A stretch of 64,000 nucleotides of DNA, from positions 67,086,001 to 67,150,000 of the forward strand of contig NC_086097.1 in the NCBI RefSeq assembly GCF_963921235.1. The letters run 5' to 3'. Positions 709 through 58,671 of the stretch are shown piece after piece. The notes under the pieces are model-generated. The model searched no databases and was not told the DNA's origin. It saw only the letters and a program-made list of their open reading frames with translations. How positions within the stretch are numbered: position 1 is the first letter of the stretch; every line of letters begins with the position of its first letter. This DNA comes from Mobula hypostoma. Its lineage: Eukaryota. A program made the position numbers and the translations under genes.

Positions 709-709
709 A

Positions 710-4976: not shown

Positions 4977-5057
4977 GTTATAGATTTTACTATGTTAAAA
5001 GTTGTTTACATTGATATGGTTTAACAACATATTCAGTACATTTTATTTATTTTTCAG

Positions 5058-23501: not shown

Positions 23502-24004
23502 TGTAACCCCCTTGGCCAGCCTCAGGGTCGCTCAGCTCGCAGTCGTCTAGGGAAACAGCCCTCGGCCCCGCCAAACTGGGTAATAAGTTTGTGTGGATGC
23601 TGTGTGATGTACCCCACCCTGCCCAAATAACAGACAATACACCAGATATGATTAAATGATTTACAGTTTATAGATATTACTGGAACTATATAATTAATAG
23701 AGAATAAAATATAAAAGGAAATTAAAAGGCGCCACACTACCAAAGTTCAATCTCTTCGTGCACAAACAGTTGGAGCTCAGGACCTTCCTTCTTCACCCTG
23801 CGATTCCTCGGACCACCTCGACCTGCCACCTGGGACCACAACGGTGGTCAACTAGACGCTCCACACGAGTCCGTCTCTGTCTCCTCTCCTTGCCAAACAC
23901 CCTGGACCTCGGACTCCTGCTCAGGGTCCGACCCCGTTAGCGGACTCACAGCACCTGGTGCATTCTCATTCATTCATTCATTCATTCATTTTCTCTTTTT
24001 TTTT

Positions 24005-24045
<41 letters not shown>

Positions 24046-24270
24046 TTCTCCCCTAAAACCCGCGCATCACAGTATCTTACAGACACACAGAAAGCATAAC
24101 AACTATCCCAATTGGTTCAACACCTTCTTGTCAGTAACATGATCCAAACAAACTGCTAGCGGCAGGACTTTCTCAGCAGTTAACATAACAAAGAAGCCCT
24201 TTCAATTATAACATAACAAAGAAGCCATTTTAATTAGACTACGCAGTGACAAAAAAAAAGAAACCCCTTA
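23502..24270 (-). mobile_element. Solo LTR of a related Gypsy family nested in the integrase
   Basis: Begins TGTAACCCC and is flanked by TGTG (23498-23501 / 24271-24274). Removing it restores integrase YNCTQNKLTGCSPY. It shares GTGTGGATGCTGTGT...AAATAACAGACA with the host LTR and contains (TCAT)n and (CT)n. Confidence 0.8.
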
Positions 24271-27238: not shown

Positions 27239-29394
27239 CTCACCTCAAACTTGGCACCATTTGAATGTCAGGAACTTGTGCGTGGGGTCATTTTGCACAG
27301 AGGGTGACGGACCTGGCTGACAAATGTGACAGGTCTCAACCCTGTGCCCTGATCCTCATACAGAACATCCCCCAAGCCCTCTCTTCTAGCATCCGTATGC
27401 AGTACATACAGCAATCAGGGGTCTGCAAAAACCAACAAAGGCGCTTTCGTCAGTAGCTTCTTCAGCAACTGAAAGGCCTTTTCATGTCTCACATCCCATC
27501 TAGCTCCAAAAGGCTCTGAAGGACTAAGATAATCTTTACCATCCTCTCTTTTTGTCCTTCTCCCATTTTCCCCAAGAGAGGGTAACAACACAGAAGCTGA
27601 TTTAAAGAGTGACTCACTTTTGCATAGCCCTCCACGAACCTCCGATAGTACCCACAGAATCCACGGAACAAGTGCAGGGCACTCACAGTCTTGGACCTTG
27701 GCCATGCGGTCAATGCCTCTATCTTAGACGGATCAGTAATTACTCCATTATGTGAGACTATGTGCCCAACATAGTTGACAGATGTCTTGCACTTGTCCAG
27801 GGAAAGCTTTAACCCTTCACGTTCAGTAACCTCACTTCATGTTCCTCCAAGGTTGACCCAAACACTATGAGGTCATCTAGATACACCAATACCTCAAGCA
27901 AGTTCATATCCCCCACCGTTTTCTCCATGACATGCTGGAAAGTTGCAGGGGTCCCCATATGCCCTGGGACATCCTTTCAAACTGGAAGAATCCCACTGGA
28001 CATATGAATGCCATTTTCTCTTTATCAGCCTCACTCATGGGGATCTGGTAATACCCACTCCTCAAGAAGCGCACACTGAACTGCTTCGCACCAGTCAGAC
28101 AGGTCAGCGCGTCCTCGATTCTCGAGACAGTAGGCCTGGTCAGGGACTGTATGCCTGATCAGAGTCTGATTGTCCACACTCATCCGTACCTTCCCATTCT
28201 TCTTCCTGGCCACTACTATTGGGGACGCATAGGGGCTTCTGGACTCAGTGATGATCCTAGCTTCCTTCAACTTCTGCAGATGCTGCTGAACGTCCTCCAC
28301 CTCTGCTGGTGCCAGTCGCTGCGACCTTTCTCTGAATGGGGTGTCTTTTGTCACCTGGATGGTGTGGCGAGTACTCGTGGAACAACACACATCAAACTTG
28401 TCAGTAGAAAAGACATCTTCCAGCTTCAACATCTTCTCTATCAACCCCCTCTTCCAATCTCCAGGTACTGGGGAGTTCCCAAAGTTGAATGACTCGGCAG
28501 TCAACTTTCCTCTTTTCAGAGAGAGTTTCTCTCTGGCTTATCTCACAGGGACACTAGACATTACCATCACTGGAAAGAGGTGTGCCATTGGAATCCCCCG
28601 CCCGAGGATCACTTCCCTTTACAAGGTGTTCCAGACACTCACTGTCATCCTATTCACCTGTACAACTGAGGGCTTCTGCAGTTCAGGCCTCACCAGTACT
28701 CCAGCAGGTAAGCCTGACTCCTCTTCATGGTCTTCTGGAGCATACACCAAGAGAGCCTCAGCATCAGGCATTCCAGGAAATTTCGGGTTTCCCGTCACTC
28801 TAGCTACGTAATGCAACTGGTTTGGACCGGGTGAACCATACAGTCCCTCGCTTATGCTCATCATCCAGCCCAGTGTGGCCACGCTCTTCCTCAAAAGCAG
28901 CTGAGAACACAGGGTGAATAGAAAATGTTTTCAGAAAGCTCTCTCCAACTTTCTTCTTGCAGGCTCCCACTAGCCTCCTCACAATAGGAGTATTTGTTCC
29001 CATGAGAATTGAAGCTTCGTCCCTCTCGACCGGGTCCTGACAAGCCAACATTAATGTATCAAAGACCTCAGCTACTCCCACATCTGCCTCCAAAAACTCC
29101 AGCTTCAATGACAAGTAACCATCGTACAAGAAGTCATATGTACTAAGACCCCAGATCTCTAGCGCACTGAGTGGCGTCAAGGGTAAATAAGTCAAATACC
29201 GGTTGTAAAACGAACGGTATAGCAGAGTAACCTGGGATCCTGTGTCAAGTATGGCTCTAGCACAAACACCCTCAATCCATAGCAATACACTGGAGCTTGG
29301 CCCCACTGAGCCTTCAGGAATAGGGTTTTTGCTTTAGCGTGTTCCTTGATATACTGATTGGAACGTGTTCCACCCGAGATGCCAGGCCATTCCT

Positions 29395-30850
29395 TCACTG
29401 GAGCTCTTCTAAGTTTCCTGATGTCTCTCACCACTTAGGTACCCGGGGGGGGGGGGGGGCTCACTCTCTGAAGGCTTTCCTGGTCTTCACTTCCACCTGA
29501 AGTGTCCTTCTTCCTCACAGTTATAGCAGACAATACCAGACTCTCCCCTTCTCGCGGGACCCCATTCCCTAGCAGTGCTCTGCTTAGTATGTGCCCTCAA
29601 CGGTCCGACTCCCTGTCGCCTTTGCCATGGGGGGTGGCCACACCCACTGATAATAACCGGGACTTCTCAGTTCTAAACTCTGCCATGAGCTCCTTTACCA
29701 CCCCCGGGGGTGGGTTATCAGGGGTCACTTCAGCAACAGGGTCTACTACCGAGGACTGTACCCTGCTGACGGAGGCCTCCCGTGCCTCCGTTGCATTCTC
29801 CTCCTCGCTTACTTCTCTGTTCAGCTTGACAAATGAAGGAGGAGGGGCATGTCTTACGAGACATTTGGAGACCCCAGACAATCATGTCTGTGACTGGGTG
29901 CCTTTTGCCACCTGGTCCATTCTTAACTGATTCACCTCAGCCGTTTGAATGGCCCACCCTACGCTGCAAGCAACTCAATTGTCTCTCTAGCCGAAAAATG
30001 TAGGCCGAATGTAGGTCTCTCTAGATGAAAAATGTTTCTCCCCCCCTTCTCCTAAAACATGTTCCAAAGCCCCGCCATAAGCTCCATTGGGCTTCCCGTC
30101 ATGCCAAAAGTATTTTCTAGCGCTTGCACATAGCCCCCGGAAGTAGCCAAAGGTTTCTGTGTCTTTAAGGATCTCACTACGTCAGCAGCCGGAACTCCCA
30201 GACTCTTTGCCAGTCGCTGTCTTTTCACATTATCAGAGCACTGCCACTCATCCAGCATCTGGGAGGTTTGCTTCGCCCAAGTCTCATATTCCTCCTACCC
30301 TTCGGGGGGTGCGTTATTCCCGAGAATATTCTGAGCCTATGATAACTGCGACTCCACCTGGGCACTTGGCCATTTATTCCTCAGGAATGTAAGGGCTGAT
30401 ATCAACTCAGAATGCTCACCCCTCGCTGGAGGGCTCATTAAGCCTTCCAGATCAGACCACTCCTTCCCCTCACTCCTCAGAAACGGGAGCAACTTGTCTT
30501 TAAAGTCTCCATCCGCAGCTATGGGAAACTCAGCTTGCGATTTGGCACCCTCATCTACACTCCCCTCCTCCCAGAAAGTATGGACAGCCCACGTGCCCCC
30601 CCACTTTCCCGGGGCCCCAATAGAACCAGACAGACCCACTGCACTAGTCTGACCTAAAACGAAGTCTTTGCCTGCCATTTTGTCAGACCTCTACTCCATG
30701 ATCGTAACTGTTCCCTGATGCTTTAACGGTACTCAGAGTCCTAATCAGCAATTCATCAGGGCTACGAACGTTCACCCTACTCAGTACAAATGCACTTGTT
30801 ACCAGTGATCCCATGGATTTGCACCACTGCTCAGCCCCTACAGCATTCAA
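29395..30850 (-). pseudogene. Gypsy gag (PNMA/Ma-like capsid), disrupted
   Basis: EQWCKSMG...GGTWAV...MLDEWQCSDNVKRQRLAKSLGVPAADVVRSL; decayed zinc knuckle CYNCEEEGHFRWK* at ~29478-29529; frameshifts and stops. Confidence 0.8.
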
Positions 30851-31589: not shown

Positions 31590-34490
31590 TACATCTACTT
31601 ACCTAATAAAGCCCTTCGTCATCTGATTTCTCTAAACCAGGGGACTTTGAGAGATAGCTTGGACGCTTTGAGAGATTTAGGGTTGCAAGCAATCTCACTC
31701 AGGCTTCAGAACAGCATCAAGTAAGCACATTGATATACTGCATGGGTGACAAAGCAGATTACATCATGGGTGGATTAGGATGGAGGGATTCTCAGAAAAA
31801 GGAGTAGAAAGCAGTGCAGGACAAATTCAAAGAATATTTCACAGGAAAGCAAAATGTGATATATGAGAGGGCAAAGTTCAACTCCAGGAAACAGGAACCA
31901 AATGAAAGCGTAAATGACTTCATCACAGCTTTGTATGCCCCGTCAGACAACCGTACATATGGAAATCTGAGAGATGAGCTCATTAGAGACAGGATGGTTG
32001 CCTGGCTAGTAGACACCAAATTATCAGAGGGGTGCCAGTTACAGACAAATCTCACACTAAAAAAAGCTATTACTATGGTCAGACAGAGTGAGAATATTTG
32101 TCAGCAACAGGCAGAACTCAGGCATAAAAACAATACTGAGGTAATGCTAGAAGCTGTATAAAAGGAAGGGTACAAACAAGTTGCAGTCAAAAAGTCTACC
32201 AAAAGAAGTGACAGTAGAGATCAGCTCAGACAAAATAGACAAGCGAAACAAAAAGCAGGTAAAATGTCCAACTTACTGCAGGAGATGAGGCAAGTTTCTA
32301 TTCCATGCCAAAAAGCTCTATTCAGCAAAAGAAGTGAAATAATAGTAATAATAATAATAATTCCCCAAGTGGGAAATTGATCCTTGTGACAGTGGAGCTG
32401 AATGAGCCTGTTCGAAAGGATGCTCCGCTGCTTAATCAGTAGGTCATGGAAAGGATGTGCCTGATTGTCCATAATGGATTAACAATTTGTTAAGTGACCT
32501 CCTCTCCATCACTAACTCAAAAGAGTCCGGGTTGTAGCCAAGGACAGATCCAGCCTTTTTGATGAGGTTGTTTAGGCTTTTTGCATCACTAGTAGCAATG
32601 CTGCTCCCCTAACATAAATGTCACCAATGCAACAGACTTGGCCATTATAAAACCCAGTGTCGCTCAAAAATAGTTCTTCAGGAGGTCAAAGAAGACCATG
32701 ATTCAGATGAAGACAGACCTTGCCTTGGGGCTCTAGATTCAAATAAACAAGGCTGGTATACTAAAGTTCAGTTGCAAAATGAGGCAGTGATGTTGAAAAT
32801 GGACAGCGGGGCAGATGTCGCAACCCTCCCTGAATGTCAGTTCACAAAACTGCTGAAGGAAATAGGCATTACACTAAACCCAACAAAGAAAATGATCACG
32901 GGGCCAGAGAAACATAATCTCAGTGTGAAAGGAATGTTTACTTCTTCCATCTGTAAAAGGGAGAAACAGTTAAAAGAGGATGTCTATGTTGTTCAGAATC
33001 TCTTCTCACCACTACTGGGATGACATGCCATCCAGAAGATGAACCTCATTGCAAGGCTGGATTCACTAAACAATGTTCAGTGGCAGGAGACGTGTCCAGA
33101 GTTGTTCACAGACCTTGGGGTACTGAAAGAAGAGTACCTTATCCATTTCAGGTCATGAGTGATGCCCTACTCTCTGACCACAGTGAGGTGTATACCAGTG
33201 CCATTAATGAACAAAGTCAAAGTTGAACCTGAGAGAATGGAGGTGCTTGACATCATAACTAGAGAGAATGGACCTACCAACTGGTGAGCTAGCCAGATGG
33301 CACAGTGAGGATCTGTGTTGATCTAACAAAATTGAATAATGCAGTGAGGTGGGAGAAGTTTATTTTGCCCTCTTTTGAGCACACATTGGCTATGCTGGGT
33401 GGAGCAAAGTTCTTCACCAAACTAGATGCAAACTCAGGGTTCTGTCAGATCAGTTTAGTTCGCGTGTCACAGAGCTCACAACCATTATCACACCATATGG
33501 ATGCTATGCCTTCAATAAACTCACTTTTGGCATCTCATCAGCCCCAAAACTTTTTCAGATGAGGATGAACCAAATTCTGGAGGGACTGGAAGGAGTAGTT
33601 TGCCACATGGATGATATACTCATCTTCAGAGGCTCAAGTGAGGAACATGACAAAAGAGTGGAAGTTGCCTTGGAGAAACTGAAACAGGCTGGAATCACCC
33701 TGAAATGGGAATTTGCAAAGTTGAAGGTGAAGTTCTTAGGCCACCAACTGCCCTCAAAGGGAGTGCAACCAGATTCAGACAAAATGGTAGGGATAACCTC
33801 GGAAAGTATCAGAGATCCACAGTTTCCTTGGCATGGGTAAACCAGCTGGGAAAGTTTATTCTAGACTTGGCAGAGCAAACAAAACCAATATGTGACCTTC
33901 TGTCTCAGAGAAACATTTCAACCTTGGGCGCACTGCAGGAGAAGTCATTCTCATCGCTTAAAGCAGAGCTTATCTCTCTGCCAATATTTATCTGAGTAAA
34001 ACAACCAAGGGCTGAGCAGACGCCTCTTCCATTGGCCTTGGGGGAGTGCTCATGCAGCACTGCAGTGGTGTATGGAAACCAGTGGTGAATGCATCAAGAG
34101 TACTGACACCTACTGAACAGCGTTACGCCCAAATTGAAAAGGAAATGCTGACTCTTTGTGTGGGCTTGTGAATGCTTTAGCTGCTACCTGATGGGTACTA
34201 AATTCCTACTTGAAACAGACCACAAGCCACTTGTCAGCCTCCTCATCTCAAAATGCTTGGATGACTTACCTCCACATTTGCAAAGATTCAGAATGAAGCA
34301 TATGCGACACTGCTATGACCCCGGAACATCTTTCATAACACCAAACTCTCTGTAGAATATGCCATGTAACAATGAGTGGTGGGAAGCTGACTCTGCCCTC
34401 ATGGAAGATGCCAACATCTACTTAACTCAGGTACGTGAAAGCTTTCCTGCATCACAGAGTAAACTGGACAAATTTTGCACGAGTTGAAAA
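31590..34490 (+). mobile_element. Decayed Gypsy internal region (gag-PR-RT-RH), no LTR recognised
   Basis: gag FKEYFTGKQNVIYERAKFNSRKQEPNES, CCHC knuckle CHQCNRLGHYKTQC (~32619-32660), protease KMDSGAD, RT RICVDLTKLN...KLDANSGF...CHMDDILI, RH EQRYAQIEKE...ETDHKPL. Confidence 0.88.
32341..32615 (-). mobile_element. Rex1/Babar-type LINE 3' end nested in gag
   Basis: MDNQAHPFHDLLIKQRSILSNRLIQLHCHK; (ATT)n tail; TSD AAAT at 32337-32340 / 32616-32619. Removing it restores AKEVKCHQC. Confidence 0.75.
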
Positions 34491-35486
34491 AGGACCAAAT
34501 CTGCAGCAAGGGAACCAAAGTGAAGAGATGGAGAATGGGGAGGTTGGAGCACAAGCAGAGACAACTTGTAGTCAGCTTGTGAGGAAGGACAGGCAGATGT
34601 TAGAGCAAAGATGCACCCAGCTTGATGGTTTAAGATGTGTCTATTTTAATGCAAGGAGTATCATAGACAAGGCAGATGAACTCAGAATGTGGATCAATAC
34701 ATGGAACTGTGACGTTGTGGCCATTACAGAGACTTGGATGTCTCAGGAGCAGGAATGGCTGCTGAGTGCGCCAGGCTTTAGATGTTCCAAAAAGAAAAGA
34801 GGGGGGAGGCATTGCTAATCAGGGATAGTGTCACAACTGCAGAAAAGGAGGAAGTCATGGAGGGATTATGTACTGAGTCAGTGTGGGCGGAAGTCAGAAA
34901 CAGGAAGGGGCAATAACTCTACTGGATGTTTTTTATAGACTCCCCAATAGTAACAGGGATATCGAGGAGCAGATAGGGAGGCAGATTCTGGAATGGTGCA
35001 ATAATAATAGGGTTGTTGTGATGGGAGATTCTACTTTTCCTAATATTGATTGGCATCTCCTTCGTGCAAGGGGTTTAGATGGGGTGGAGTTTGTTAGGTG
35101 TGTTCAGGAAGGTTTCTTGACTCAATATGTAGATAAGCCAACTAGAGGAGAGACTGTACTTGATCCAGTATTGGGAAATGAACCTGGTCAGGTGTCAGAT
35201 CTCTCGGTGGAAGAGCATTTTGGAGGTACTGACCACAACTCTATTTCCTTCACCATAGCACTGGAGAGGGATAGGAGCAGACAATTTGGGAAAACATATA
35301 ATTGGGGTAGGGGGAAATATGATGCTATTAGGCAGGAACTTGGGAGCATAAATTAGGAGCAGATGTTTTCAGGGAAATGCATAGCAGAAATATGGCAAAT
35401 GTTCAGGGAACATTTGCCTGGAGTTCTGCATAGGTATGTTCCATTGAGGCAGGGAAAGGATGGTAGAGTTAAAAAACCATTGTGTA

Positions 35487-36465
35487 GAGTGCCCTCCTGC
35501 TTCAAATTATCCACCATTGTCCCTGTACCAAAAAAGACCAAGGTAACATGCCTGAACGACTGGTGTCCTGTTGCACTCACCTCAAAAATAAGCAAATGCT
35601 TTGAGTGGCTGGTCAAGGATTACATCTGCAGCTTGCTATCATTCAAACTGGACCCCCTACAATTCACGTACTGACACTGAGCAACAGCCACTGCTCTACA
35701 TACCATCCTTACATATCTAGAGAAGAAGGATGCTTATGTGAGAATGCTGTTCTTGGACTACAGTTCAGCTTTCAACACCATAGTCCCATCCAGGCACCAG
35801 TTGTGTGGTGAAAAAGGCTCTTTCACCTCAGATGTTTGAGGGAGTTTGGTATGACCATAAGACCATAAGACAAAGGAGCAGAAGCCGGCCATTCGGCCCA
35901 TCGAGTCTGCTCCGCCATTTTATCATGAGCTGATCCATTCTCCCATTCAGTCCCACTCCCCCGCCTTCTCACTATAACCTTTGATGCCCTGGCTACTCAG
36001 ATACCTATGGGTCCCAAGTCCTAAGAACTTTCTACAGAGGCACAATTGAGAGCATCCTAACTGGCTGCATCACTGCCTGGTATGGGAACTGTTCCTCCCT
36101 TGATCGCAGGATTCTGCAGAGAGTGGTGTTGACAGCCCAGCGCATCTGTAGTGGTGAACTTCCCACCATTCAGGACATTTACAAGGACAAGTGTGTAAAA
36201 AGGGCCCATAGGATCATTGGGGACCCAAGTCACCCCAACCACAATCTATTCTAGCTGCTATCATCCGGGAAGCAGTACTGCAGCATAAAAGCCAGGACCA
36301 AGAGGCTCCGGGACAGCTTCTTCCACCAGGCCATCAGACTGATTAATTCACACTGATTTGAGTGTACTCTATATTACATTGACTGTTCTAGAGATGTAAC
36401 GTAAAGATTTTACTCCTCATATATGTGAAGGATGTAAGAAATAAAGTTAATTCAATTCAGTTCAA
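35487..36465 (+). mobile_element. Internally deleted Rex1/Babar LINE nested in CR1
   Basis: [32 protein letters not shown]...LDPLQF and [22 protein letters not shown] + (TTCAA)n tail. Its 3' part is nearly the same as 44615-45042. Confidence 0.85.
35854..36005 (-). mobile_element. CR1-type 3' tail fragment nested in the Rex element
   Basis: (ACCATAAG)2 tail followed by GGCCATTCGGCCC (CR1 3' stem); TSD TATG at 35850-35853 / 36006-36009. Confidence 0.7.
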
Positions 36466-36904
36466 TACAAAGTATGTAGAAAATCTAACTAAGAAAAGAA
36501 AAGCTTACAAAATGTTCAAGAAACTAGGTACTGTTAGAGCTTTAGAAAACTACAAGGTTGCTAGGAAGGAGTTTAAGAATGGAATTAGGAGAGCCAGAAG
36601 GGGCCATGAGAAGGCCTTGGTGAGCAGGATTAAGGAAAGCCCCAAGGCATTCTACAAGTATGTGAAGAGCAAGAGGATGAGCCGTGTGAGAATAGGACCA
36701 ATCAGATGCGATACTGGAAACGTGTGCGTGGAGTCAGAGGAGGTAGCAGAGGTACTTAATGAATACTTTGCTTCAGTATTCACCAGGGAAAAAGACCTTG
36801 CCAATGGAGGGGATGACTTACAGTGGACTGAAACGCTTGAGCATATAGACATTAAGAAAGAGGATGTGCTGGAGCTTTTGAAAAGCATTAAGTTAAATAA
36901 GTCA

Positions 36905-37188
36905 AACAACAGGAATTCTGCAGATGCTGGAAATTCAAGCAACACACATCAAAGTTGCTGGTGAACGCAGCAGGCCAGACAGCATCTCTAGGAAGAGGTA
37001 CAGTCGACGTTTCAGGCTGAGACCCTTCGTCAGGACTAACTGAAGGAAGAGTTAGTAAGAGATTTGAAAGTGGGAGGGGGAGTTCGTCCTGGTGAAGGGT
37101 CTCGGCCTGAAACGTCGACTGTACCTCTTCCTAGAGGTGCTGCCTGGCCTGCTGCGTTCACCAGCAACTTTGATGTGTGTTGCTTAAA
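36905..37188. mobile_element. ORF-less palindromic Penelope-pLTR element
   Basis: Two inverted pLTR arms; TSD TTAAATAAGTCA at 36893-36904 / 37189-37200. Removing it restores CR1 IKLNKSPGLD. Confidence 0.88.
37002..37037 (-). ncRNA. Minimal type I hammerhead ribozyme motif (intact core)
   Basis: rc = AGTC CTGACGA AGGGTCTCAGCCT GAAAC GTC GACT. Confidence 0.75.
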
Positions 37189-38754
37189 TTAAATAAGTCA
37201 CCAGGATTGGATGAGATATACCCCAGGCTACTGTGGGAAGCAAGAGAGGAGATTGTTGAGCCTCTTGCAATGATCTTTGTGCCATCAATAGGGACAGGAG
37301 AAGTATTGGAGGATTGGAGGGTTGCAAATGTTGTTCCCTTGTTCAAGAAAGGAAGTAGAGATAACCCAGGAAATTATAGACCAGTGAGTCTGATTTCAGT
37401 GGTGGGCAAGTTGTTGGAGAAGATCCTGGGAGGCAGGATTTATAAGCATTTGGAGAGACATAATCTGATTAGGGATAATCAGCATAGCTTTGTCAAGGGC
37501 AAGTCGTGCCTTACAAACGTGATTGAATTCCCTGAGGATGTAGCAAAACACATTGATGAAGGTAGAGTAGTGGATGTAGTGTGTATGGATTTCAATAAGG
37601 CATTTGATAAGGTTCTCCATGTAAGGTTCCTTTAGAAAGTAAGGAGGCATTGAATCCAAGGAGACCTTGTTTTGTGGATCCCGAACTGGCTTGCCCACAT
37701 AAGGCAAAGGGTGGTTGTAGATGGTTCGTATTCTGCATGGAGGTTGGTGACCAGTGGTGTTCTGCAGGGATCTGTTCTGGGACCCCTCCTCTTCGTGATT
37801 TTTATAAATGACTTGGATGAAGAAGTAGAATGGTGGGTTAGTAAGTTTGCTGATGACAGGAAGTTTGGGGGTGTTGTGGATAGTCTAGAGGGTTGTCAGA
37901 GGTTACAGCGGGACATGGATAGAATGCAGAGCTGGGCTGAGAAATGGCAGAAGGAGTCCAACCCAGGTAAGTGTGAAGTGGTTCATTTTGGTAGGTACAA
38001 TTTGAAGGCAGAATATAATAAAAATGGTAAGACACTTGGTACTGTGGAGGATGTGAGAGATCTTGGGATCCATGTCAATAGGACACTCAAAGCTGCTGCG
38101 CAGGTTGACAGCGTTGTTAAGAAGGCATATGGTGTGTTGGCATTCATCAGCTGTGGGATTGAGTTCAAGAGCCTTGAGGTAATGTTACAGATATATAAGA
38201 CCTTCGTTAGACCCCACTTGGAGTAGTGTTCGGTTCTGGTCACCTCACTACAGGAAGGTTGTGGATTCTATAGAGAGAGTGCAGAGGAGATTTACAAGGA
38301 TGTTGCCTGGATTGGAGGGTGTACCTTATGAGAATAGGTTCAGTGCACTTGCCCTTTTCTCCTTGGAGCGACAGAGGATGAGAGCTGACCCGATAGAGGC
38401 GTAAAAAATGATGAGAAGCATTGATCGTGTGGATAGCCAGAGGCTTTTTCCCGTGGTTGAAATGGCTAACACAAGGGGGCATAGTTTCAAGGTACTTGGA
38501 AATAGGTACCAAGGGGTAGGTTTTTCACACAGAGAGTGGTGGGTGCATGGAATGTACCACTGGCGGTGGTGGTGGAAGTGGATACAAAAGGGTCTTTTAA
38601 GAGCCTCTTAGATAGGTACATGGAGCTTAGAAAAATAGAGGGCTATGCACTAGGGAAATTCTAGGCAGTTTCCAGAGTAGGTAATATGGTTGGCACAACA
38701 TTGTGGGCCGAAGGGCCTGTAATGTGCTGTAGATTTCTATGTTCTATGTTTTAA

Positions 38755-39000
38755 GTCAATATTCATGCTATCAGGTTGGAAGGTACCCAGACAGAATATA
38801 GGGTGTTGCTCCTCCACCCTGATGGTGGCCATTTGTGGTGGATAGTACGGATGTGATCGATAAAGCGGTCCCCCAATTCAGATGGGTCTCACCAATGTGG
38901 TGAAGGCTGCATTGGGAGCACCAAACACAATAGATGGCCCCAGCAGGATCACAGGTGAAGTGCTGTCTTAACTGGAAGGACAGTCTGGGGCACTGAATGG
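38755..39000 (-). mobile_element. Penelope-like GIY-YIG fragment
   Basis: SFQLRQHFTCDPAGAIYCVWCSQCSLHHIGETH in ORF 38771-39175. Confidence 0.75.
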
Positions 39001-39809
39001 AAACACCCAGCATCTTCAGACTTCCACGTGTTTGAGTTTTATATCCAGGCTTAATGGAAATGAGAAAGGCCAAAGGTGAAGAGATCTGGAGAGGCATGAG
39101 ACAGTCAACCATGCAAACATTTTTCAGATAGTAAGGGTGGAGTTTGCCATCTTTTACAGGCAAAGCTGCAGACAAGTTGCAAAAAGGATGAGGTTCTGGA
39201 TACCAGAATTACAATGGATATCGTTTGTGATTTTGATGAAGCACATTTCAGTACTGTTCAGGGTGGAATGCTGACTTATTAGTTTCAGAGGTCCTGAAAG
39301 GGTGGGCATGAATCTGGGAGATAGACAATGAAGAGAAGAGAAAAAGTGGAGATGGATTGGTTGTTTGAAAAGCCAGATGAGCTAATGTCAGTTTTTTTTT
39401 AAAAAGAGGGAGGTGATGCATCCATTAAGTCCGCTCAGCCAGTCAATAAAATCATGACCTCAACTCCACTTACCTTTACAGTCCAAATATCTACCTATTT
39501 CAGCCTTGAATTTATTCAGTGATTTAGATCCCACAATGATATTGGGAAGAAAATTCTGAATATTCATGACCAGCTAAGAGATAAAAATCATTCTCATGTA
39601 TTTTAAATAGGTGGCCCCTTAATCCTAGACAGTATATTTTTGTTCTGTATTCCCACTATCATCTCAGCATCTATCATACTAAGCCCATTCTGAATCTTAC
39701 GTGTTTCAATAAAATTAACTCTGGTTCTTAAAAATTGCAAGTTTAATCATTCTTTATTATAAAACCCCACTAATCAGCACTACCCACTGCAGTTGTAGTC
39801 TGCTTCCCA

Positions 39810-40667: not shown

Positions 40668-42900
40668 TGTGTTAGTGCACAACTACATGTCAATTAAATA
40701 AAAATATGCATACGGGAGATTGCTTTAACTGGTGATTTCACATTGCAATGAGAGAGAGAACCATGCGCCTGTGCAGACAACAGATCAACTTGTAGTGCTA
40801 AAAGGGGTGGGTCATCGCTCTCAATGAAACAGATCCATACATCACACTTCCTCCCCCCTTAGATTAATACAACATAAAACTGTTATGTACAAAACATTAA
40901 ACTTCCCTTTCATAAAACCCATATTCCACATAACCATGCTTTCACAATGACAGTCCATAACCGACTTCACAGTTCTAAAGATTCTGTATTTTGGGTGGTG
41001 CTCTGCTTCTTTCAGGATAGCACCTCTGGACCTGGGGAGTGGCATCAGGTTTGGTAGGTGTCTTGTCTAAAACAACGTTCTCCGTTTCCAGTGTCACATT
41101 GCTCTCATTGACATGATTATCACTGAGAGGTAAGTCCAGTGACTGTAATGTGTCCGTCTTGTTGGATGTGGTCGACTCAGGTGTGCTCTTCAATTGCGCA
41201 TCCAGGGTCTGGTCCACATAATGTCTGCATGTCTGATCTCTAACATCCACTGCAGTCCATTTCTTATAGCTATCCTACCAGGTGTCCACTTGTCTTCTCG
41301 GTAATCACGAAGACTTAGAGTTCAATCTCGAAGCTCCTCACTGTTTCACTTGGCAACTGGCTGATCTGTTTATTTAGTACTTCCCTCCAGAGATCTGGTT
41401 TCAGGAGGTCTTTGCAGGATCTCAGATTCCTGCTCATGAACAGCATTGCAGGTGTTTGATTTGTCGTTGCATGAACCGAGTTCTGATATACAAAAAGGAA
41501 AGTGTCCATATTGTGCTGTAGAGAAATGTCCTCCTTGTCCATCCCTTTAATGGACTTCTTGAAGGTTTGGATAAATCTTTCAGCTAACCCATTCATTTCT
41601 GGGTAGTGAGGAGCTGACTTGAAATGTCTGATGCCATTTTTCTTTATGAACAGTCAGAATTCTTCTGACGTGTATTGTGGCCCATTGTCACTCATGGTTT
41701 GTTCTGGTAAGCCATTTCTGGTGAAGATGCAAACACAAGGAATTCTGCAGATTCAAGCAACACACATCAAAGTTGCTGGTGAATGCAGTAGCATCTCTAG
41801 GAAGAGGTACAGGCCGAGACCTTTCGTCAGGACTAACTGACGGAAGAGCTAGTAAGAGATTTGAAAGTGGGAGGGGGAGTGGGAGATCCAAAATGATAGG
41901 AGAAGACAGGAGGGGGAGGGATGGAGCCAAGAGCTGGACAGGTGATTGGCAAAATGGATATGAGAGGATCATGGGACAGGAGGCCCAGGGAGAAGGAAAA
42001 GATAGTCCTCAGGGCAGAGACAGACTTTGTTGAGATGGTTGACTTCATTGGTTTAACCTCCGGCCACTTCGAATGAACATCCACACCAATCAGAAACATG
42101 GAGTCCATGAATGGTCCAGCAAAGTCAATATGTACTCTTTTCCATGGCGATGACAGCCAATCCCACCACTGTAACGTTGCCTGTGGAGGTGTACTGTGAA
42201 CTTTTTGGCATCCCGTACAGCTTTTGGCCACCTTCAATTTGTTTATCTATTCCCACCCACCACACATAGCTTTGGATGAGACTCTTCTTCTTGATTGTAC
42301 CCAGGTGTCCTTCATGCATATTTTCTAATGCTCTTGTGTGCAGTTTAGAGGGAACTAAAACCTGAGATCCACACATCAGCGTTTTTTGGTCTTGTCTCGT
42401 TGAAAACTGTAGGAACATAGGGTTACCATGAGCTGTCCATCCTTGCATGATGATGTCATAGACTTTGGACAAAGTTGGGTTACTCTTTGTTTCTCTTTGT
42501 ATTTAAGAATTTGTTACCGGAAACTGGTCCACCAGTGCTGTGTGGAACACTTCTGCTGGGTCACAGTATGAAGACATTTCTTCTTCAGTTGCCAGCAGTG
42601 GAAGATGTGACAAGCCATCAGCATTGCTGTGTTGTTTGGTACCCTTGATTTCTATGTTATAAGTGTGGGCTCCTAGGAATAGTGCCTAGCATTGTAACTG
42701 GGTAGTCGTCATCACTGGAATTCCCTTCCTCGGATTGAAAATGGACACAAGGGGCTGGTGGTCTGTCACTAGTGTACACTTCTGTCTGTAGAGGTAGTGG
42801 TGGAACTTCTTTATTCCTTGTACTAGACTAAGGGCCTCTTGGTCAATCTGTGCATAGAGGCGTTCTGCGCTTGTCAGCGATCTTGAAGCAAACTCAATCA
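40668..42900 (-). mobile_element. 5'-truncated Gypsy element (RH-IN + PPT + short 3' LTR)
   Basis: FASRSLTSAERLYAQIDQEAL...TDHQPL, HEGHLG...YVWW, PWKRVHIDFAGP, NGLAERFIQTFK. PPT AAGGGGGGAGGAAG (40847-40860) is followed by TGTGATG; putative LTR 40668-40846 (TGTG...CACA). Confidence 0.85.
41729..41998 (-). mobile_element. Penelope pLTR fragment nested in Gypsy integrase (hammerhead partly deleted)
   Basis: Matches the pLTR at 50255-50500 plus the tail; TSD AAGAT at 41724-41728 / 41999-42003. Removing it restores SALRTIFTRNGLPEQ. Confidence 0.85.
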
Positions 42901-43589
42901 GGCAAAACACCAACACTTTTTGGTCTTCATCATTTAAACATTTCTTTGCTAAAGTGAGTAAACTCCTATTTTTCCATCTTATAGCCCATCTCTCATGTCC
43001 TCACCCTTTCACTTTGCTTGTCCGTATTCTCACAACACGCACATCAAGAAACTTGCCTATATTACATAATCAAACAGCAAAAAATTGCAAATATTGGAAA
43101 TATGAAATTAAAATAGAAAATGATGGAAATACTCAACAGGTCAGGTAGCATCTCTGGAGGGAGAAACAAATTACACATCAGGTTAATGGCCTTTGATCAG
43201 AAGCAGAAAAAGTTAGAAATCAACTGCGTTTTTCTGTTACAGAGAAAGGAGAGAAATACAGAAAACAACAGGAATATTTGTGAATGTTTGGCAATCTAAA
43301 GAGATTGAATGACAAAGGATTGAAAGAATGTGCTGAAAGCTTATTAATTGCAGATGGTTAGCCTGGGGAAATTACAAGAAAAATTAAACGACTGAGGGCA
43401 GAGGAGAGAAAATAAATATGCTAGAACCATGAAAATCAAGTCATTGCTACTACTAAAGATCTGAAATAATGGAAATGAAGATACTCAGAGACCAGGCACA
43501 TAAAACCTATATTTCTTTTTTTTTTCCTTTTCTGACTAATTTGAGGTATAGATTTATGTTTACATGTTCTCTCCCTTCTTGCCATTCTT

Positions 43590-44510: not shown

Positions 44511-44614
44511 GTAAAACTCCAATAATCCAGCATGATCAGGAATTTGATTATAGTATTGTTAGTTTTTCTGGATTACTGTAAGTTATTTTATTACTGGATG
44601 TTATTAATAGCACC

Positions 44615-45042
44615 ACTCCCTGGTATGGGAACTGTACCTCCCTCAATTGCAGGATTCTGCAGAGAGTGGTGCGGACAGCCCAACGCATCTGTAGTTGTGA
44701 ACGTCCTATCATTCAAGATATTTACAAGGACAGTTATGTAAAAAGGGCCAGTAGGATCATTGGAGACCCAAGTCACCCCAACCACAATCTATTCCAGTTG
44801 CTACCATCCTGGAAACAGAACTGCAGCATAAAAGCCAGGACCAACAGGCGCCGGGACAGCTTCTTCCACCAGGCCAACAGACTGATGAACTCACGCTGAT
44901 CTGAGTGTACTCTATATTACATTGTCTGTTCTATTTTTTATAAATTACTATGATTACACATTGCACATTTAGACGGAGACATGATGTAAAGATTTTTACT
45001 CATATATGTGAAGGATGTAAGAAATAAAGTCAATTCAATTCA
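44615..45042 (+). mobile_element. Rex1/Babar LINE 3' end
   Basis: VVRTAQRIC...RASRIIGDPSHPNHNLFQLLPS...DSFFHQANRLMN; AATAAAGT(CAATT)n tail. Confidence 0.8.
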
Positions 45043-49754: not shown

Positions 49755-50314
49755 GTAAGTTTTTGCCGTTCTCAGTTTCTGGTTCTCCAGTCCTGGGCCC
49801 TCAATAGGGCCGTAAAGGGGATTTTAAATCACGTTCCACCCTATCCTAGTTACTGTCTCGATAGGTGAACTTGCCTCGTGCCAATTGCAACTGTGCACGA
49901 ATTATATCCCGTTAAACAAGGTTAAATGTCTATTATGTTTTGGATCGCCGTTGGCACGATATTGTAAGGTGAATTTCATATTTTTATTCTTAGAATTGAT
50001 TCAGGCTTATAGCTACCAAATTTGCTTCTAATTTTGAAAAGAAAATCAAGAAAACGAAATGCAAATTGTATTGTTTTCCTTGTCTTTAGTAAGCTTCATA
50101 TTTTGGGAGAAGCCTCTGTCTTTGCACCTACTTCAACTGAGTTTTAAATGGATTCAAATGTAACCACAAAGGATAAACTGAAGCATTACTTGCACAGCTT
50201 CTGACAGCTGTTGCAGTTAATGGGATTCTCACCTCTGAGTAAAAAGGTTGTGTAACACACATAAAAGTTGCTGGTGAATGCAGCAGGCGAGGCAGCATCT
50301 CTAGGAAGAGGTAC

Positions 50315-50350
50315 AGTCGACGTTTCAGGCCGAGACCCTTCGTCAGGACT
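50315..50350 (-). ncRNA. Minimal type I hammerhead ribozyme motif (intact core)
   Basis: rc = AGTC CTGACGA AGGGTCTCGGCCT GAAAC GTC GACT. Confidence 0.78.
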
Positions 50351-50641
50351 AACTGAAGGAAGAGTGAGTAAGGGATTTGAAAGTTGGAGGGGGAGATCCA
50401 AGATGATAGGACAAGATGGGGGGGGGGGGGATAGAGCCAAGAGCTGGACAGGTGATAGGCAAAAGGGGATACGAGAGGATCATGGGACAGGAGGTCCGGG
50501 AAGAAAGACAAGGTGGGGGGGGGAACCCAGAGGATGGGCAAGAGGTATATTCAGAGGGGCAGAGGGAGAAAAAGGAGAGTGAGAGAAAGAATGTGTGCAT
50601 AAAAATAAGTAACAGATGGGGTACGAGGGGGAGGTGGGGCC

Positions 50642-52357
50642 TTAGCTGAAGTTAGAGAAGTCGATGTTCATGCCATCAGGTTGGAGGCTACCCAGACGGA
50701 ATATAAGGTGTTGTTCCTCCAACCTGAGTGTGGCTTCATCTTTACAGTAGAGGAGGCCGTGGATAGACATGTCAGAATGGGAATGGGATGTGGAATTAAA
50801 ATGTGTGGCCACTGGGAGATCCTGCTTTCTCTGGCGGACAGAGCATAGATGTTCAGCAAAGCGGTCTCCCAGTCTGCGTCGGGTCTCGCCAATATATAAA
50901 AGGCCACATCGGGAGCACCGGACGCAGTATATCACCCCAGTCAACTCACAGGTGAAGTGTTGCCTCACCTGGAAGGACTGTTTGGGGCCCTGAATGGTGG
51001 TAAGGGAGGAAGTGTAAGGGCATGTGTAGCACTTGTTCTGCTTACACAGGTAAGTGCCAGGAGGGAGATCAGTGGGGAGGGATGGGGGGGACGAATGGAC
51101 AAGGGAGTTGCGTAGGGAGCGATCCCTGCGGAATGCAGGGGGGGGGGAGGGAAAGATGTGCTTAGTGGTGGGATCCCGTTGGAGGTGGCGGAAGTTACGG
51201 AGAATAATATGTTGGACCCGGAGGCTGGTGGGGTGGTAGGTGAGGACCGGGGAACCCTATTCCTAGTGGGGTGGCGGGAGGATGGAGTGAGAGCAGATGT
51301 ACGTGAAATGGGGGAGATGCGTTTAAGAGCAGAGTTGATAGTGGAGGAAGGGAAGCCCCTTTCTTTAAAAAAGGAAGACATCTCCCTCGTCCTAGAATGA
51401 AAAGCCTCATCCTGAGAGCAGATGCGGCGGAGATGGAGGAATTGCAAGAAGGGGATGGCGTTTTTGCAAGAGACAGGGTGAGAAGAGGAATAGTCCAGAT
51501 AGCTGTGAGAGTCAGTAGGCTTATAGTAGACATCAGTGGATAAGCTGTCTCCAGAGACAGAGACAGAAAGATCTAGAAAGGGGAGGGAGGTGTCGGAAAT
51601 GGACCAGGTAAACTTGAGGGCAGGGTGAAAGTTGGAGGCAAAGTTAATAAAGTCAACGAGTTCTGCATGCATGCAGGAAGCAACGCCAATGCAGTCGTCG
51701 ATGTAGCGAAGGAAAAGTGGGGGACAGATACCAGAATAGGTACGGAACATAGATTGTTCCACAAACCCAACAAAAAGGCAGGCATAGCTAGGACCCATAC
51801 AGGTGCCCATAGCTACACCTTTAGTTTGGAGGAAGTGGGAGGAGCCAAAGGAGAAATTATTAAGAGTAAGGACTAATTCCGCTAGACGGAGCGGAGTGGT
51901 GGTAGAGGGGAACTGATTAGGTCTGGAATTCAAAAAGAAACGTAGAGCTTTGAGACCTTCCTGATGGGGGATGGAAGTATATAAGGACTGGACATCCATG
52001 GTGAAAATAAAGCGGTGGGGGCCAGGGAACTTAAAGTCATCGAAAAGTTTAAGAGTGTGAGAAGTGTCATGAACATAGGTAGGAAGGGATTGAACAAGGG
52101 GGGATAAAACCATGTCGAGGTATGCAGAAATGAGTTCGGTGGGGCAGGAGCAAGCTGAGACAATAGGTCGGCCAGGACAGGCAGGTTTGTGGATCTTGGG
52201 TAGGAGGTAGAAACGGGAAGTGCGGGGTGTGGGAGCTATAAGGTTGGTAGCAGTGGATGGGAGATCCCCTGAGCGGTGATGGTGTGGGAGACAATGGCCT
52301 GGTGCTCCTTAGTGGGGTCATGATCGAGGGGTAAATAAGAGGAGGTATCTGCGAGAG
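50642..52357 (-). pseudogene. Penelope-like RT/GIY-YIG ORF, lightly disrupted
   Basis: ORFs 50965-52113 (RT) and 50642-50968 (GIY-YIG). A 1-nt deletion near 51250 relative to the copy at ~57630 (RVPLVLTYH) shifts the frame; the N-terminus is broken or truncated. Confidence 0.85.
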
Positions 52358-52518
52358 TTCTTCCCGGACCTCCTGTCCCATGATCCTCTCGTATCCCCTT
52401 TTGTCTATCACCTGTCCAGCTCTTGGCTCTATCCCTCCCCCTCCTGTCTTCTCCTATCATTTTGGATCTCCCCTTCCCCCTCCAACTTTCAAATCCCTTA
52501 CTCACTCTTCCTTCAGTT

Positions 52519-52554
52519 AGTCCTGACGAAGGGTCTCGGCCTGAAACGTCGACT
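52519..52554 (+). ncRNA. Minimal type I hammerhead ribozyme motif (intact core, sense to SNX6)
   Basis: AGTC CTGACGA AGGGTCTCGGCCT GAAAC GTC^GACT; predicted cleavage at 52550/52551. Confidence 0.78.
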
Positions 52555-52729
52555 GCACCTCTTCCTACAGATGCTACCTGGCCTGCTGCGTTCACCAGCA
52601 ACTTTGATGTGTGTTACTTGAATTTCCAGCATCTGCAGAATTCCTGTTGTTTGCGTTTTTTAAAAAAAAGGTTGTGTAGTTTTTTTTTCTACTTGAAAAA
52701 TGAAACACCTGTAAGACGGTGCTGTCTTT

Positions 52730-53635: not shown

Positions 53636-54590
53636 TAAGGTTCAAAGTAAATTTGTTCTCAAAGTACATGTACGTTACCTTATGTTAGTCCTGACGAAGG
53701 GTCTCGGCCTGAAACGTCAACTGTACCTCTCCCTAGAGATGCTGCCTGGCCTGCTGCGTTCACCAACAACTTTTATGTGTGTTGCCTGTATGTTACCTTA
53801 TGCTACCTTGAGTTTAATTTTTGGCAGGTGTTTATAAGAAGAATAGAAATGCAATAGAATCCATGAAAAAAAACATACATAAGCAAAGACTGACAACCAA
53901 TTTGCAAAAGGAAACAAAATGAGCAAAAAAAAAGTCAAGAACATGAGTTGTAAAGAGTCCTTAAGTGAGTCTGTAGTTTGTAGAATCAGTTCAGAGTTGT
54001 GGTGAGTGACATTATCCACTCTAATTAAGGAACCTGATGATTGTAGGTTAATAATTGTGCGAAACTGGTGGTGTGGGACTACTGACTTCTGTACTTCCTG
54101 CCCAATCGTAACATTGAGAAGGGAGTATGGCCTGAATGGTGGGGATCTATGCTATGCAAATCTATGCAAACTTCTGAGGAAGTAGATGGTGCTGTCATGC
54201 CACCTTTGTGATGGTACTTGCGTGCTGGTCCCAGGATAGGTAATCTGATAATACTAGTTGCAAGGAGTTTAAAGCTTCTGCCCTTCTCCACCCCCAATCC
54301 CTTAATGAGGAAGGACCTCCAGCTTCTTCCTCTTGTAATCGATCTTTGATTTTGACATTGAGGGAGAGGTTGTAATTGTGGCACTATTCAAACAGATTTT
54401 CAGTCTCCCTCCTATATGCTGATTCATCAGCATCTTTGATTTCGTTAACAACTTTGGTGTCTTAGCTACATGATCATAGGTATAAAGTGAGTAGAGCAGG
54501 GGCTAAACACACAGTTGTGTAGTGCACTTATACTGATGGTGAGTGTGGAGGAGATTTTGCTAATCCAAACTAACCAGGGTCTGCCAGTTG
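53636..54590 (-). mobile_element. Old Rex1/Babar-type LINE fragment
   Basis: GVEKGRSFKLL...IDPHHSGHTPFSMLRLGRKYRS; AAATTTACTTTGAACCTT tail on minus. Confidence 0.65.
53685..53786 (+). mobile_element. 102-bp Penelope pLTR mini-insertion: hammerhead motif (53687-53722) plus downstream pLTR
   Basis: 16-bp TSD TGTACGTTACCTTATG / TGTATGTTACCTTATG at 53669-53684 / 53787-53802. The core CTGACGA...GAAACGTC is intact; one stem I mismatch. Confidence 0.85.
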
Positions 54591-57578: not shown

Positions 57579-58671
57579 CACGCACATCTGCTCTCACTCC
57601 ATTGTCCCGCCACCCCACTAGGAATAGGGTTCCCCTTGTCCTCACCTACCACCACACCAGCCTCTGGGCCCAACATATTATTCTCTGTAACTTCTGCCAC
57701 CTCCAACAGGATCCCACCACTAAACACATCTTTCCCTCCTCCCCCCCCCCCGCTTTCCGCAGGGATTGCTCCCTACGCGACTCCCTTGTCCATTCGTCCC
57801 CCCCATTCCTCCCCACCGATCTCCCTCTTGGCACTTAACCTTGCAAGTGGAACAAGTGCTACACATGCCCTTACACTTCCTCCCTTACCACCATTCAGGG
57901 CCCCAGACAGTCCTTCCAGGTGAGGCGACACTTCACCTGTGAGTTGGCTGGGGTGATATACTGCGTCCGGTGCTCCCGATGTGGCCTATTTATTGGCCAG
58001 ATCCAGCAGACTGGGAGATCATTTCGCTGAGCACCTACGCTCTGTCTGCCAGAGAAAGCAGGATCTCCCAGTGGCCACACATTTTAATTCCACGTCCCAT
58101 TCCCATTCTGATATGTCTATCCATGGCCTCCTCTACTGTAAAGTTGAAGCCACACTCGGGTTAGAGGAACAACACCTTGTATTCTGTCTGGGTAGCCTCC
58201 AACCTGATGGCATGAACATTGACTTCTCAAACTTCCACTAATGCCCCGCCTCCCCCTCGTACCCCATCCGTTATTTATTTATTTATATACACACATTCTT
58301 TTTCTCTCTCTTGTTTTTCTCCCTCTGTCCCTCTCACTATACCCCTTGCCTATCCTCTGGGTTTTCCCCCCTCCCCCTTTTTCTTTCTCCCTAGGCCTCC
58401 TGTCCCATGATCCTCTCATATCCCTTTTTGCCAATCACCTGTCCAGCTCTTGGCTCTATCCCTCCCCCTCCTGTCTTCTCCTATCATTTTGGATCTCCCT
58501 CTCCCCCTCCAACTTTCAAATCTCTTACTAGCTCTTCCTTCAATTCGTCCTGACGAAGGGTCTCGGCCCGAATCGTTGACTGTACCTCTTCCTAGAGATG
58601 CTGCCTGGCCTGCTGCATTCACCAGCAACTTTTTGTGTTGCTTGAATTTCCAGCATCTGCAGATTTCCTCG
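57579..58671 (+). mobile_element. 5'-truncated Penelope-like element (GIY-YIG + pLTR; hammerhead mutated at 58546-58581)
   Basis: Close reverse complement of 50255-51310; 14-bp TSD AGAATGCATAATTT at 57565-57578 / 58672-58685. Confidence 0.92.

What the first reader, a model, noticed from the sequence alone, without database searches (positions are those of the whole stretch)
36905..37188. ORF-less 284-bp palindrome made only of two head-to-head hammerhead-bearing pLTRs, with its own 12-bp TSD
Seen: the left arm (minus) has an intact hammerhead plus the ~35-nt tail AACAACAGGAATTCTGCAGATGCTGGAAATTC. The right arm (plus) has a core-mutated hammerhead (CTGGTGA) and no tail. The TSD TTAAATAAGTCA shows a single insertion into CR1. 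Older inverted-arm relatives lie at 12275-12990 and 17230-17740. Inference: this is either an extreme truncation/inversion product of Penelope integration or a non-autonomous, MITE-looking, retrozyme-like family mobilised by the Penelope RT/GIY-YIG. Its RNA would fold into a hairpin of more than 100 bp.
Basis: partly seen in the sequence, partly recalled or inferred. Interest (0 to 1): 0.7.

Follow-up and report, generated by a model that had tools for sequence, protein, structure and literature searches.

The report
Stump-sized head-to-head Penelope retroelement insertion
This 284-base mirror-image insert is a real but ordinary leftover of a Penelope-like jumping gene, whose integration often leaves two shortened copies head to head, and nothing found here shows that the mirror-image unit itself jumps as a family.

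Summary
In detail: 110-nt arms, 94% complementary, a 12-bp TSD, and an empty site in a paralogous LINE copy. It is the shortest form of the known inverted-pLTR Penelope insertion. A sister at 50255-52664 has the same plan around RT and GIY-YIG remnants with a Neptune-type linker. Both outer ends fall on the family's two 3' end classes (tailed, tail-less), so both arms read as first-strand cDNAs primed from the two nicks and joined over 3 nt (inferred). It fails the retrozyme test: one hammerhead per strand, the right one damaged, the left buried in the hairpin. Contigs of two related organisms show many other short head-to-head junctions (15 of 120 joints shown); the strongest filler junction matches a natural fold-back site, so a shared junction alone would not prove a family. 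No genome was held, so the genome-wide junction count is still open. One lead: arm starts pile up just 5' of the hammerhead. The scan's notes report similar palindromes elsewhere in this genome and in one other genome. Interest low.

The parts
36893..36904 (+). left target-site duplication, 12 bp
   Evidence: control
36905..37083 (-). long arm: 5'-truncated pLTR with tail, 179 nt; + strand reads as first-strand cDNA primed from the top-strand nick (inferred)
   Evidence: 95% identical over 177 nt to 52475-52651; profile hit E 9e-64
36905..36933 (-). unpaired 3' tail (29 nt; 34 nt if 37184-37188 is a target stutter)
37002..37037 (-). minimal type I hammerhead, core unchanged, 1-bp palindromic stem III; predicted cut between 37006 and 37005
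   Evidence: pattern scan; constrained fold; no Rfam match at E<=1
37042..37080 (-). 39-nt loop: pLTR sequence present in the long arm only (pyrimidine tract ending in CAG on the sense strand)
37081..37083 (.). head-to-head junction with 3-nt overlap AGT that belongs to both arms
   Evidence: junction pattern found once in the window
37081..37188 (+). short arm: tail-less pLTR, 108 nt, starting 0-3 nt from the A of the CAG just 5' of hammerhead stem I
37085..37120 (+). damaged hammerhead: changes at 37085 (stem I), 37092 and 37093 (core)
37189..37200 (+). right target-site duplication, 12 bp
36460..38749 (+). host LINE (CR1-like; label recalled) interrupted by the insertion; paralog without the insertion at 25430-27235 (-)
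   Evidence: 82-85% identity to the paralog; RVT_1 hits E 5e-12 and 6e-10; empty site
50255..52664 (.). sister insertion with the same plan: tail-less long arm on - with RT and GIY-YIG in two frames, tailed 294-nt arm on +, 14-bp TSD
53685..53791 (+). solo tail-less arm, 107 nt, 11-bp TSD; starts within 1-2 nt of where the focal short arm starts
57579..58671 (+). solo tailed 5'-truncated copy, 14-bp TSD
41732..42004 (-). solo tailed copy with internal deletions; no TSD found

Best explanation
One integration event of an abundant Neptune-type Penelope-like retrotransposon, in which both cDNAs stopped early. Shown: an insertion with a 12-bp TSD; two pLTR arms head to head; one outer end at the family's tailed 3' end, the other at its tail-less 3' end; a 3-nt overlap at the joint. 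Inferred: the GIY-YIG endonuclease nicked both strands of an AT-rich site 12 nt apart; each 3'-OH primed reverse transcription on element RNA, one at the distal (tailed) and one at the proximal (tail-less) start site; the cDNAs (179 and 108 nt) met, annealed over AGT and were filled in. The palindrome is then made anew at each insertion and is dead on arrival; the 7 arm differences, including the damaged core, are mostly later decay. That it is a single event and not a mobile unit: about 0.85. That the route was two primed cDNAs and not fold-back: about 0.6.
For: Same plan with a different junction in the sister copy, which holds RT (E 1.7e-5, below Pfam's cut-off) and GIY-YIG (E 4.8e-5, above it). 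Of 5 young insertions in the window 2 are head to head and 4 have an 11-14 bp TSD; their 7 arms end in two classes, 4 tailed and 3 tail-less, and start at +1, +2/+3, about -42, -152, -161, -979 and -2002. The tail is on the arm that reaches further 5' in the focal copy but on the shorter arm in the sister, which a simple copy of the longer arm cannot give. An anole Penelope-like protein cuts and extends both strands at AT-rich DNA from two adjacent RNA sites that define the tail, and is predicted to be a dimer (PMC11167929). Inverted 5'-truncated copies with a 30-40 bp tail at either end are typical (PMC8557442; PMC3846280); paired minimal hammerheads 100-700 bp apart on opposite strands were noted in 2014 (PMC4209133). 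Contigs of two related organisms hold many other short head-to-head joints: 14 of the 15 shown (120 in all) and 10 of the 12 filler joints shown (339 in all). The two focal arms differ from each other (6 of 97) as much as from other copies (5-8). The focal junction has no predicted self-pairing at the long cDNA's 3' end (P < 0.0001).
Against: No genome was held, so copies of this junction elsewhere were not counted. The joints come from contigs, 13 of the 14 with unknown letters between the sides, and can include library fold-back chimeras and related subfamilies. 11 of those 14 joints appear in both organisms, so some junctions recur. The paper on two-strand extension is about a Poseidon-clade element in vitro and, in the parts read, does not derive inverted arms from it; the field's published readings are self-priming and endonuclease resolution of an intermediate. 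Only one site hints at two different RNA templates (37085, shared with the copy at 58543 and not with the left arm); the sister's arms share 3 private variants, which fits either route.
Confidence: 0.82

Rival explanations
1. Single event, but by fold-back: one cDNA was primed at the tail, stopped at about -42, folded on itself and was copied back; the second end was cut or joined at the tail-less position.
For: Self-priming is the published reading of head-to-head palindromes (PMC3846280). The best-supported filler joint (37043 to 37094 with one C) is exactly the product of a cDNA end folding back on a 4-bp stem, the most paired 3' end between 37033 and 37085 (P 0.47-0.72). A 3-nt overlap fits this route too.
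Against: At the focal junction the predicted pairing is below 0.0001. In the sister copy the shorter arm carries the tail that the longer arm lacks. The short arm would have to stop by chance at the tail-less end class seen in solo copies.
Confidence: 0.27
2. Non-autonomous mobile family: the whole palindrome is transcribed and reinserted by the Penelope RT/endonuclease, as a hairpin 'retro-MITE'.
For: pLTR sequences alone can be enough for mobilisation in trans (PMC3846280); non-autonomous PLE derivatives exist. Some short head-to-head joints occur in both organisms and in several contigs. The long arm keeps the tail and hammerhead core.
Against: RT would have to copy through a 110-bp RNA duplex, and the far end would be an RNA 5' end, yet it sits on the family's tail-less priming end. 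The arms start at many positions among copies. The arms share no private variant. Not a tandem; one hammerhead per strand; hammerhead stem I has P about 1e-32 to 1e-35 in the full minus-strand RNA.
Confidence: 0.07
3. Two separate insertions, or a later inversion or deletion that brought two older arms together.
For: The arms differ at 6 of 97 sites, as much as unrelated copies do; a microhomology deletion could have shortened a longer inverted insertion such as the sister.
Against: One 12-bp TSD flanks the whole unit and the empty site is collinear. A deletion from a longer inverted copy cannot be told apart from truncation at birth here, but needs an extra step, and short forms are common.
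Confidence: 0.08

Closest known systems
Endonuclease-containing Penelope-like insertions with an inverted 5'-truncated pLTR and a one-sided tail (Pen2a_Av and others, PMC3846280, passages; PMC8557442 Fig. 2 legend and passages; D. virilis form C, PMC2377424, passages)
   Same: Head-to-head pLTR arms, tail on one end only, one TSD of about 8-14 bp round the whole unit, microhomology at a 5' joint.
   Different: Both arms are cut so short that no coding sequence is left; the parent family is Neptune-type by its linker motif.
Minimal hammerheads of metazoan PLE pLTRs, including pairs 100-700 bp apart on opposite strands (PMC4209133, parts 1-2 of 4)
   Same: Type I core, unpaired A before stem II, tiny palindromic stem III, two motifs on opposite strands (48 nt apart here).
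   Different: The pair at 10.1-11.1 is G.U in 5 of the 6 young arms compared, where G-C is reported as highly conserved; the right copy is damaged.
PAc (Poseidon of Anolis) in vitro mechanism (PMC11167929, parts 1-2 of 4)
   Same: AT-rich target, two 3' end classes about 30 nt apart downstream of the hammerhead.
   Different: Other clade; the link from two-strand extension to inverted arms is my inference; no ORF start was found in this pLTR.
Animal non-LTR retrozymes (bioRxiv 10.64898/2026.07.22.740005, part 1 of 5 and passages)
   Same: Non-coding, pLTR-derived, type I hammerhead, similar length (mean 363 bp for the one cartilaginous fish sampled).
   Different: Retrozymes are head-to-tail arrays with two or more complete hammerheads on one strand; this is head to head with one motif per strand.
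MITEs, and L1 twin-priming inversions (both recalled, no call)
   Same: Short, terminal inverted repeats, TSD; two primed strands joined by microhomology.
   Different: The ends are retroelement priming ends, the TSD length varies (11-14 bp), and both arms copy the same segment, whereas L1 inversions join adjacent, non-duplicated segments.

Membership tests
EN+ Penelope-like element insertion | Sequence belongs to the pLTR of an element coding RT plus C-terminal GIY-YIG endonuclease | tested here: met
   94-95% identity to both pLTR arms of 50255-52664, which holds RVT_1 (E 1.7e-5, under the curated cut-off) followed by GIY-YIG (E 4.8e-5)
EN+ Penelope-like element insertion | Inverted 5'-truncated copy, head to head | tested here: met
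EN+ Penelope-like element insertion | Tail of about 30-40 bp on one end only | tested here: met
   29 nt (34 on the other reading of the right end)
EN+ Penelope-like element insertion | Variable-length TSD | tested here: met
   12 bp here; 14, 14 and 11 bp in 3 of the 4 other young insertions
Neptune clade | CX2-5CxxC linker before the endonuclease and two cysteines inside GIY-YIG | tested here: met
   both motifs in the translation of 50642-51256; definition in PMC8557442; the linker is shared with Nematis
Neptune clade | Placement in an RT tree with named Neptune elements | not tested
   no tree built; no solved relative at E<=0.1
Minimal type I hammerhead of PLEs | Conserved core, stems I and II, palindromic minimal stem III | tested here: met
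   left arm only; right arm has 2 core changes and a lost stem I pair; Rfam 0 matches at E<=1
Minimal type I hammerhead of PLEs | Self-cleavage (as dimer or with protein help) | not testable with these tools
   stem I is predicted unformed in the full RNA (P about 1e-32 or less) and rare even in the 179-nt arm alone (P 3e-4 to 4e-4)
Non-LTR retrozyme | Head-to-tail tandem with at least two complete hammerheads | tested here: not met
   definition; anatomy
Non-LTR retrozyme | Circular RNA intermediates | not testable with these tools
   only contigs were offered
Non-autonomous mobile family (MITE-like) | Many dispersed copies with the same internal junction and different TSDs | tested here: inconclusive
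   1 match in the 64-kb window; no genome; contigs of related organisms show other junctions
Non-autonomous mobile family (MITE-like) | Copies share private mutations (form a clade) | not testable with these tools
   needs further copies of the junction; the two arms share none

The most novel reading that the evidence does not exclude
The palindrome is a founder or member of a hairpin 'retro-MITE': a non-coding, fully double-stranded RNA unit that the Neptune RT/endonuclease copies through and reinserts whole, a kind of non-autonomous element that my five literature searches did not list. A milder novel reading (probability about 0.3, interest about 0.45) is that the pile-up of arm starts at the CAG just 5' of the hammerhead marks the true 5' boundary of the element RNA (start site or splice boundary), so that thousands of such palindromes record in vivo how Penelope-like elements build inverted repeats.
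Probability: 0.07. Interest if true: 0.65.

Novelty: new member of a known kind. Interest (0 to 1): 0.2.

Why it matters
On its own this copy is ordinary repeat debris. As a class, such short palindromes are useful: how Penelope-like elements make their inverted repeats is still open (PMC8557442), and a genome with very many young copies would allow a count of arm starts, arm ends, junction overlaps and arm-to-arm variants that separates two-cDNA joining from fold-back. They also matter for annotation, since they look like MITEs or retrozymes, and as a possible source of long double-stranded RNA where they fall in transcribed regions (not shown here).

Tried and rejected
No whole genome was held, so the genome-wide junction search could not be run. 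Run search: 24 runs listed, all contigs, best share of words 0.67; no RNA holder listed. I laid 4 of the 24 (X1, X2 of organism A, one sample; X5 of organism B; X15, guessed RNA, organism A) on 37020-37140: of 32755, 43819, 23164 and 1948 contigs laid, the longest listed pieces were 63 nt and lay on the left part only, so no listed contig bridged the focal junction; a hole proves nothing, a junction contig under about 63 nt would be hidden, and these samples may not carry this locus. Contig depths were not used as copy numbers. Loose ends piled at 37086 (647-735 contigs in the 3 DNA runs) were rejected as proof of a truncation hotspot: the reference has a private base at 37085 and their consensus is another subfamily. 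A binomial test on the joint positions was dropped, as the rows are not independent. Pattern scans of metagenome contigs and prokaryote genomes found 0 loci. Rfam: 0 matches. PDB sequence search with the sister's RT: 0. Look-up of earlier notes by sequence: 0, although the family is common, so it is insensitive. RNA editing or selection for the hairpin was considered: of 7 arm mismatches 4 give G.U and 3 give mismatches in the + strand RNA, no bias; rejected. Retrozyme membership rejected on anatomy. No canonical splice donor was seen among the 8 GT sites in the 307 nt between the endonuclease stop and the CAG, which weakens the splice-boundary reading. Literature searches (listings only) showed no paper on a mobile palindromic PLE family or on such palindromes in cartilaginous fish; most subscription papers are not in the library, and supplements (for instance Fig. 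S2 of PMC11167929 on tail ends, and the tables of the 2026 preprint) were not seen and may bear on this.

Full report
Observation. The palindrome is there. The arms are 36932-37041 and 37081-37190, 110 nt, 94% complementary, with 39 nt between and 7 mismatches. Either strand folds into one long hairpin (-210.7 and -204.6 kcal/mol; 0 of 200 shuffles as stable). The 12-mer TTAAATAAGTCA flanks the unit at 36893-36904 and 37189-37200; 2000 random 284-bp intervals gave at most 8 nt. Both flanks align collinearly to a paralogous LINE copy near 26920-27050 that has the site once, so this is one insertion into a LINE whose right flank codes RVT_1. The label CR1 is recalled. The left arm (36905-37083, minus) keeps the hammerhead core; the right arm (37081-37188, plus) has changes at 37085, 37092 and 37093. 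Rfam gives 0 matches at E<=1; the motif fits the minimal type described for Penelope-like elements (PMC4209133). The unpaired tail is 29 nt, or 34 nt if the last five bases of the right arm are a stutter of the target. The arms overlap by AGT at 37081-37083.

What it belongs to. A profile of the in-window copies finds 7 young arms in 5 insertions (E 1e-36 or better; best score in the reversed window E 0.26). One of them, 50255-52664, has the same plan on a larger scale: a tail-less arm on the minus strand with RT (E 1.7e-5, below Pfam's cut-off) and GIY-YIG (E 4.8e-5) in two frames, a tailed 294-nt arm on the plus strand, and a 14-bp TSD. Its endonuclease has the CX4CxxC linker and the inner cysteine pair, which marks Neptune or Nematis and not Penelope/Poseidon (PMC8557442); no tree was built. 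Four of the 5 insertions have a TSD (12, 14, 14, 11 bp) and 2 of 5 are head to head.

How it most likely arose. Read on the plus strand, the left TSD runs straight into the antisense of the tail; read on the minus strand, the right TSD runs straight into the antisense of the tail-less end. Both arms therefore have the geometry of first-strand cDNAs primed from the two 3'-OH ends of a 12-nt staggered cut (sequence shown; mechanism inferred). The anole element PAc cuts and extends both strands at AT-rich DNA, starts reverse transcription at two adjacent RNA sites that define the tail, and is predicted to be a dimer (PMC11167929); in the parts read it does not derive inverted arms from this. Two facts favour two cDNAs over fold-back. 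The tail is on the arm that reaches further 5' in the focal copy but on the shorter arm in the sister, and a copy of the longer arm cannot hold what that arm lacks unless it was trimmed later. And the long cDNA's 3' end has no predicted self-pairing at the focal joint (P < 0.0001). Against: self-priming is the published reading (PMC3846280), a 3-nt overlap fits both, and only one site (37085, shared with the copy at 58543) hints at two templates, while the sister's arms share 3 private variants and differ at 2 sites shared with other copies. The focal arms differ at 6 of 97 core sites, other pairs at 5-9, so the damage to the right hammerhead looks like ordinary decay.

Family or single event. 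No genome was held, and the junction pattern occurs once in the window. I laid contigs of 4 of the 24 listed runs on 37020-37140. They show that short head-to-head hairpins of this pLTR are common and varied: 14 of the 15 joints shown (120 in all) and 10 of the 12 filler joints shown (339 in all) join an antisense piece to a sense piece, with left ends at 37037-37051 and right starts at 37086-37105. Eleven of the 14 occur in both organisms, so some junctions recur. These are contigs; 13 of the 14 have unknown letters between the sides; library fold-back chimeras and related subfamilies may contribute. The best-supported filler joint (37043 to 37094 with one C) is exactly what a cDNA end folding back on a natural 4-bp stem would give. 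Anatomy speaks against a mobile unit: RT would need to copy through a 110-bp duplex, and the far end sits on the tail-less priming end, not at an arbitrary RNA 5' end. It is no retrozyme: those are head-to-tail arrays with at least two complete hammerheads, and here stem I of the one intact motif has P about 1e-32 or less in the full RNA (and only 3e-4 to 4e-4 in the arm alone).

An unexplained lead. The focal short arm and the solo copy at 53685 start within 1-2 nt of each other at the CAG that ends a pyrimidine tract, and 11 of the 14 joints have their left end at +1 to +3, with only 3 further 5'. The detection edge lies just 3' of that spot and the rows are not independent. The site looks like both a splice acceptor and an initiator (consensus motifs recalled); in D. 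virilis an intron ends at the 5' end of hammerhead helix I and lies 46 bp after the start site (PMC2377424). No canonical donor was seen in the 307 nt upstream. An RNA boundary, the local hairpin, and library artefact all remain possible.

Comparison and verdict. Inverted 5'-truncated pLTRs with a one-sided 30-40 bp tail and one TSD are the typical Penelope-like insertion, and paired minimal hammerheads 100-700 bp apart on opposite strands were noted in 2014. Five searches (listings only) showed no paper on a mobile palindromic family. Papers seen: PMC11167929 and PMC4209133, parts 1-2 of 4; bioRxiv 10.64898/2026.07.22.740005, part 1 of 5 and passages; PMC3846280, PMC8557442, PMC2377424 and PMC8969392, passages; no supplements. 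Earlier notes of the scan report similar palindromes in this genome and in another, and call the organism a ray; these are unchecked notes and are not counted as evidence. Verdict: a clean, real example of a known insertion type; new member of a known kind; interest 0.2.

Noticed in passing
window 37081-37084, 37039-37041 and 53684-53685: Two of 7 young arms, and 11 of 14 shown contig joints, begin at +1 to +3 of a CAG that ends a pyrimidine tract just 5' of hammerhead stem I; the site resembles both a splice acceptor and an initiator. RNA boundary, local hairpin or artefact not separated.
   Followed up: partly
window 37030-37043 (same site in other copies, e.g. 50343-50356): A natural 4-bp stem in the first-strand cDNA predicts the best-supported filler junction in the contigs (37043 to 37094 with one C): a fold-back or microhomology hotspot.
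   Followed up: partly
window 50255-52664: Largest Penelope-like copy in the window: 5'-truncated, RT and endonuclease in two frames, Neptune-type linker, inverted tailed arm, 14-bp TSD with about 13 extra T/A-rich bases before the right copy.
   Followed up: yes
window 38753-39032: Older Penelope-like piece directly behind the host LINE's tail: endonuclease region on minus (39001-38753) head to head with a 27-nt tail-like stub on plus (39006-39032); a possible still shorter second arm.
   Followed up: partly
window 638-716, 12271-12971, 17194-17768, 43073-43200: Older, 65-80% identical pLTR relics of related subfamilies; two have inverted arms.
   Followed up: partly
window about 4440-5170, CpG island 2751-4000: Three coding exons of a cofilin-like gene on plus (name recalled from the translation); the focal insertion lies about 32 kb after its last coding exon. 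No gene over the insertion was looked for beyond this.
   Followed up: partly
window 23700-30000, 32600-33840, 42125-42502: Decayed LTR-retrotransposon coding fragments (protease, RT, integrase-like; read by eye from translations); the paralogous LINE at 25430-27235 sits inside the first.
   Followed up: no
table 5c, joint 37133 to 37020: A sense-to-antisense (tail-to-tail) joint with 16 letters between, in both runs of organism A, unlike the usual head-to-head form.
   Followed up: no
young pLTR copies, e.g. window 37108 and 37014: The hammerhead pair 10.1-11.1 is G.U in 5 of 6 arms compared and G-C in one (58543 copy), where G-C is reported as highly conserved.
   Followed up: no
window 36067-36459 and 44610-45042; 34624-35483 and 46590-47461; 59894-60264: Further dispersed repeat pairs (74-80% identical), one next to the 5' end of the host LINE segment, and a 44-nt inverted repeat pair at 59894-59937 and 60221-60264.
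   Followed up: no
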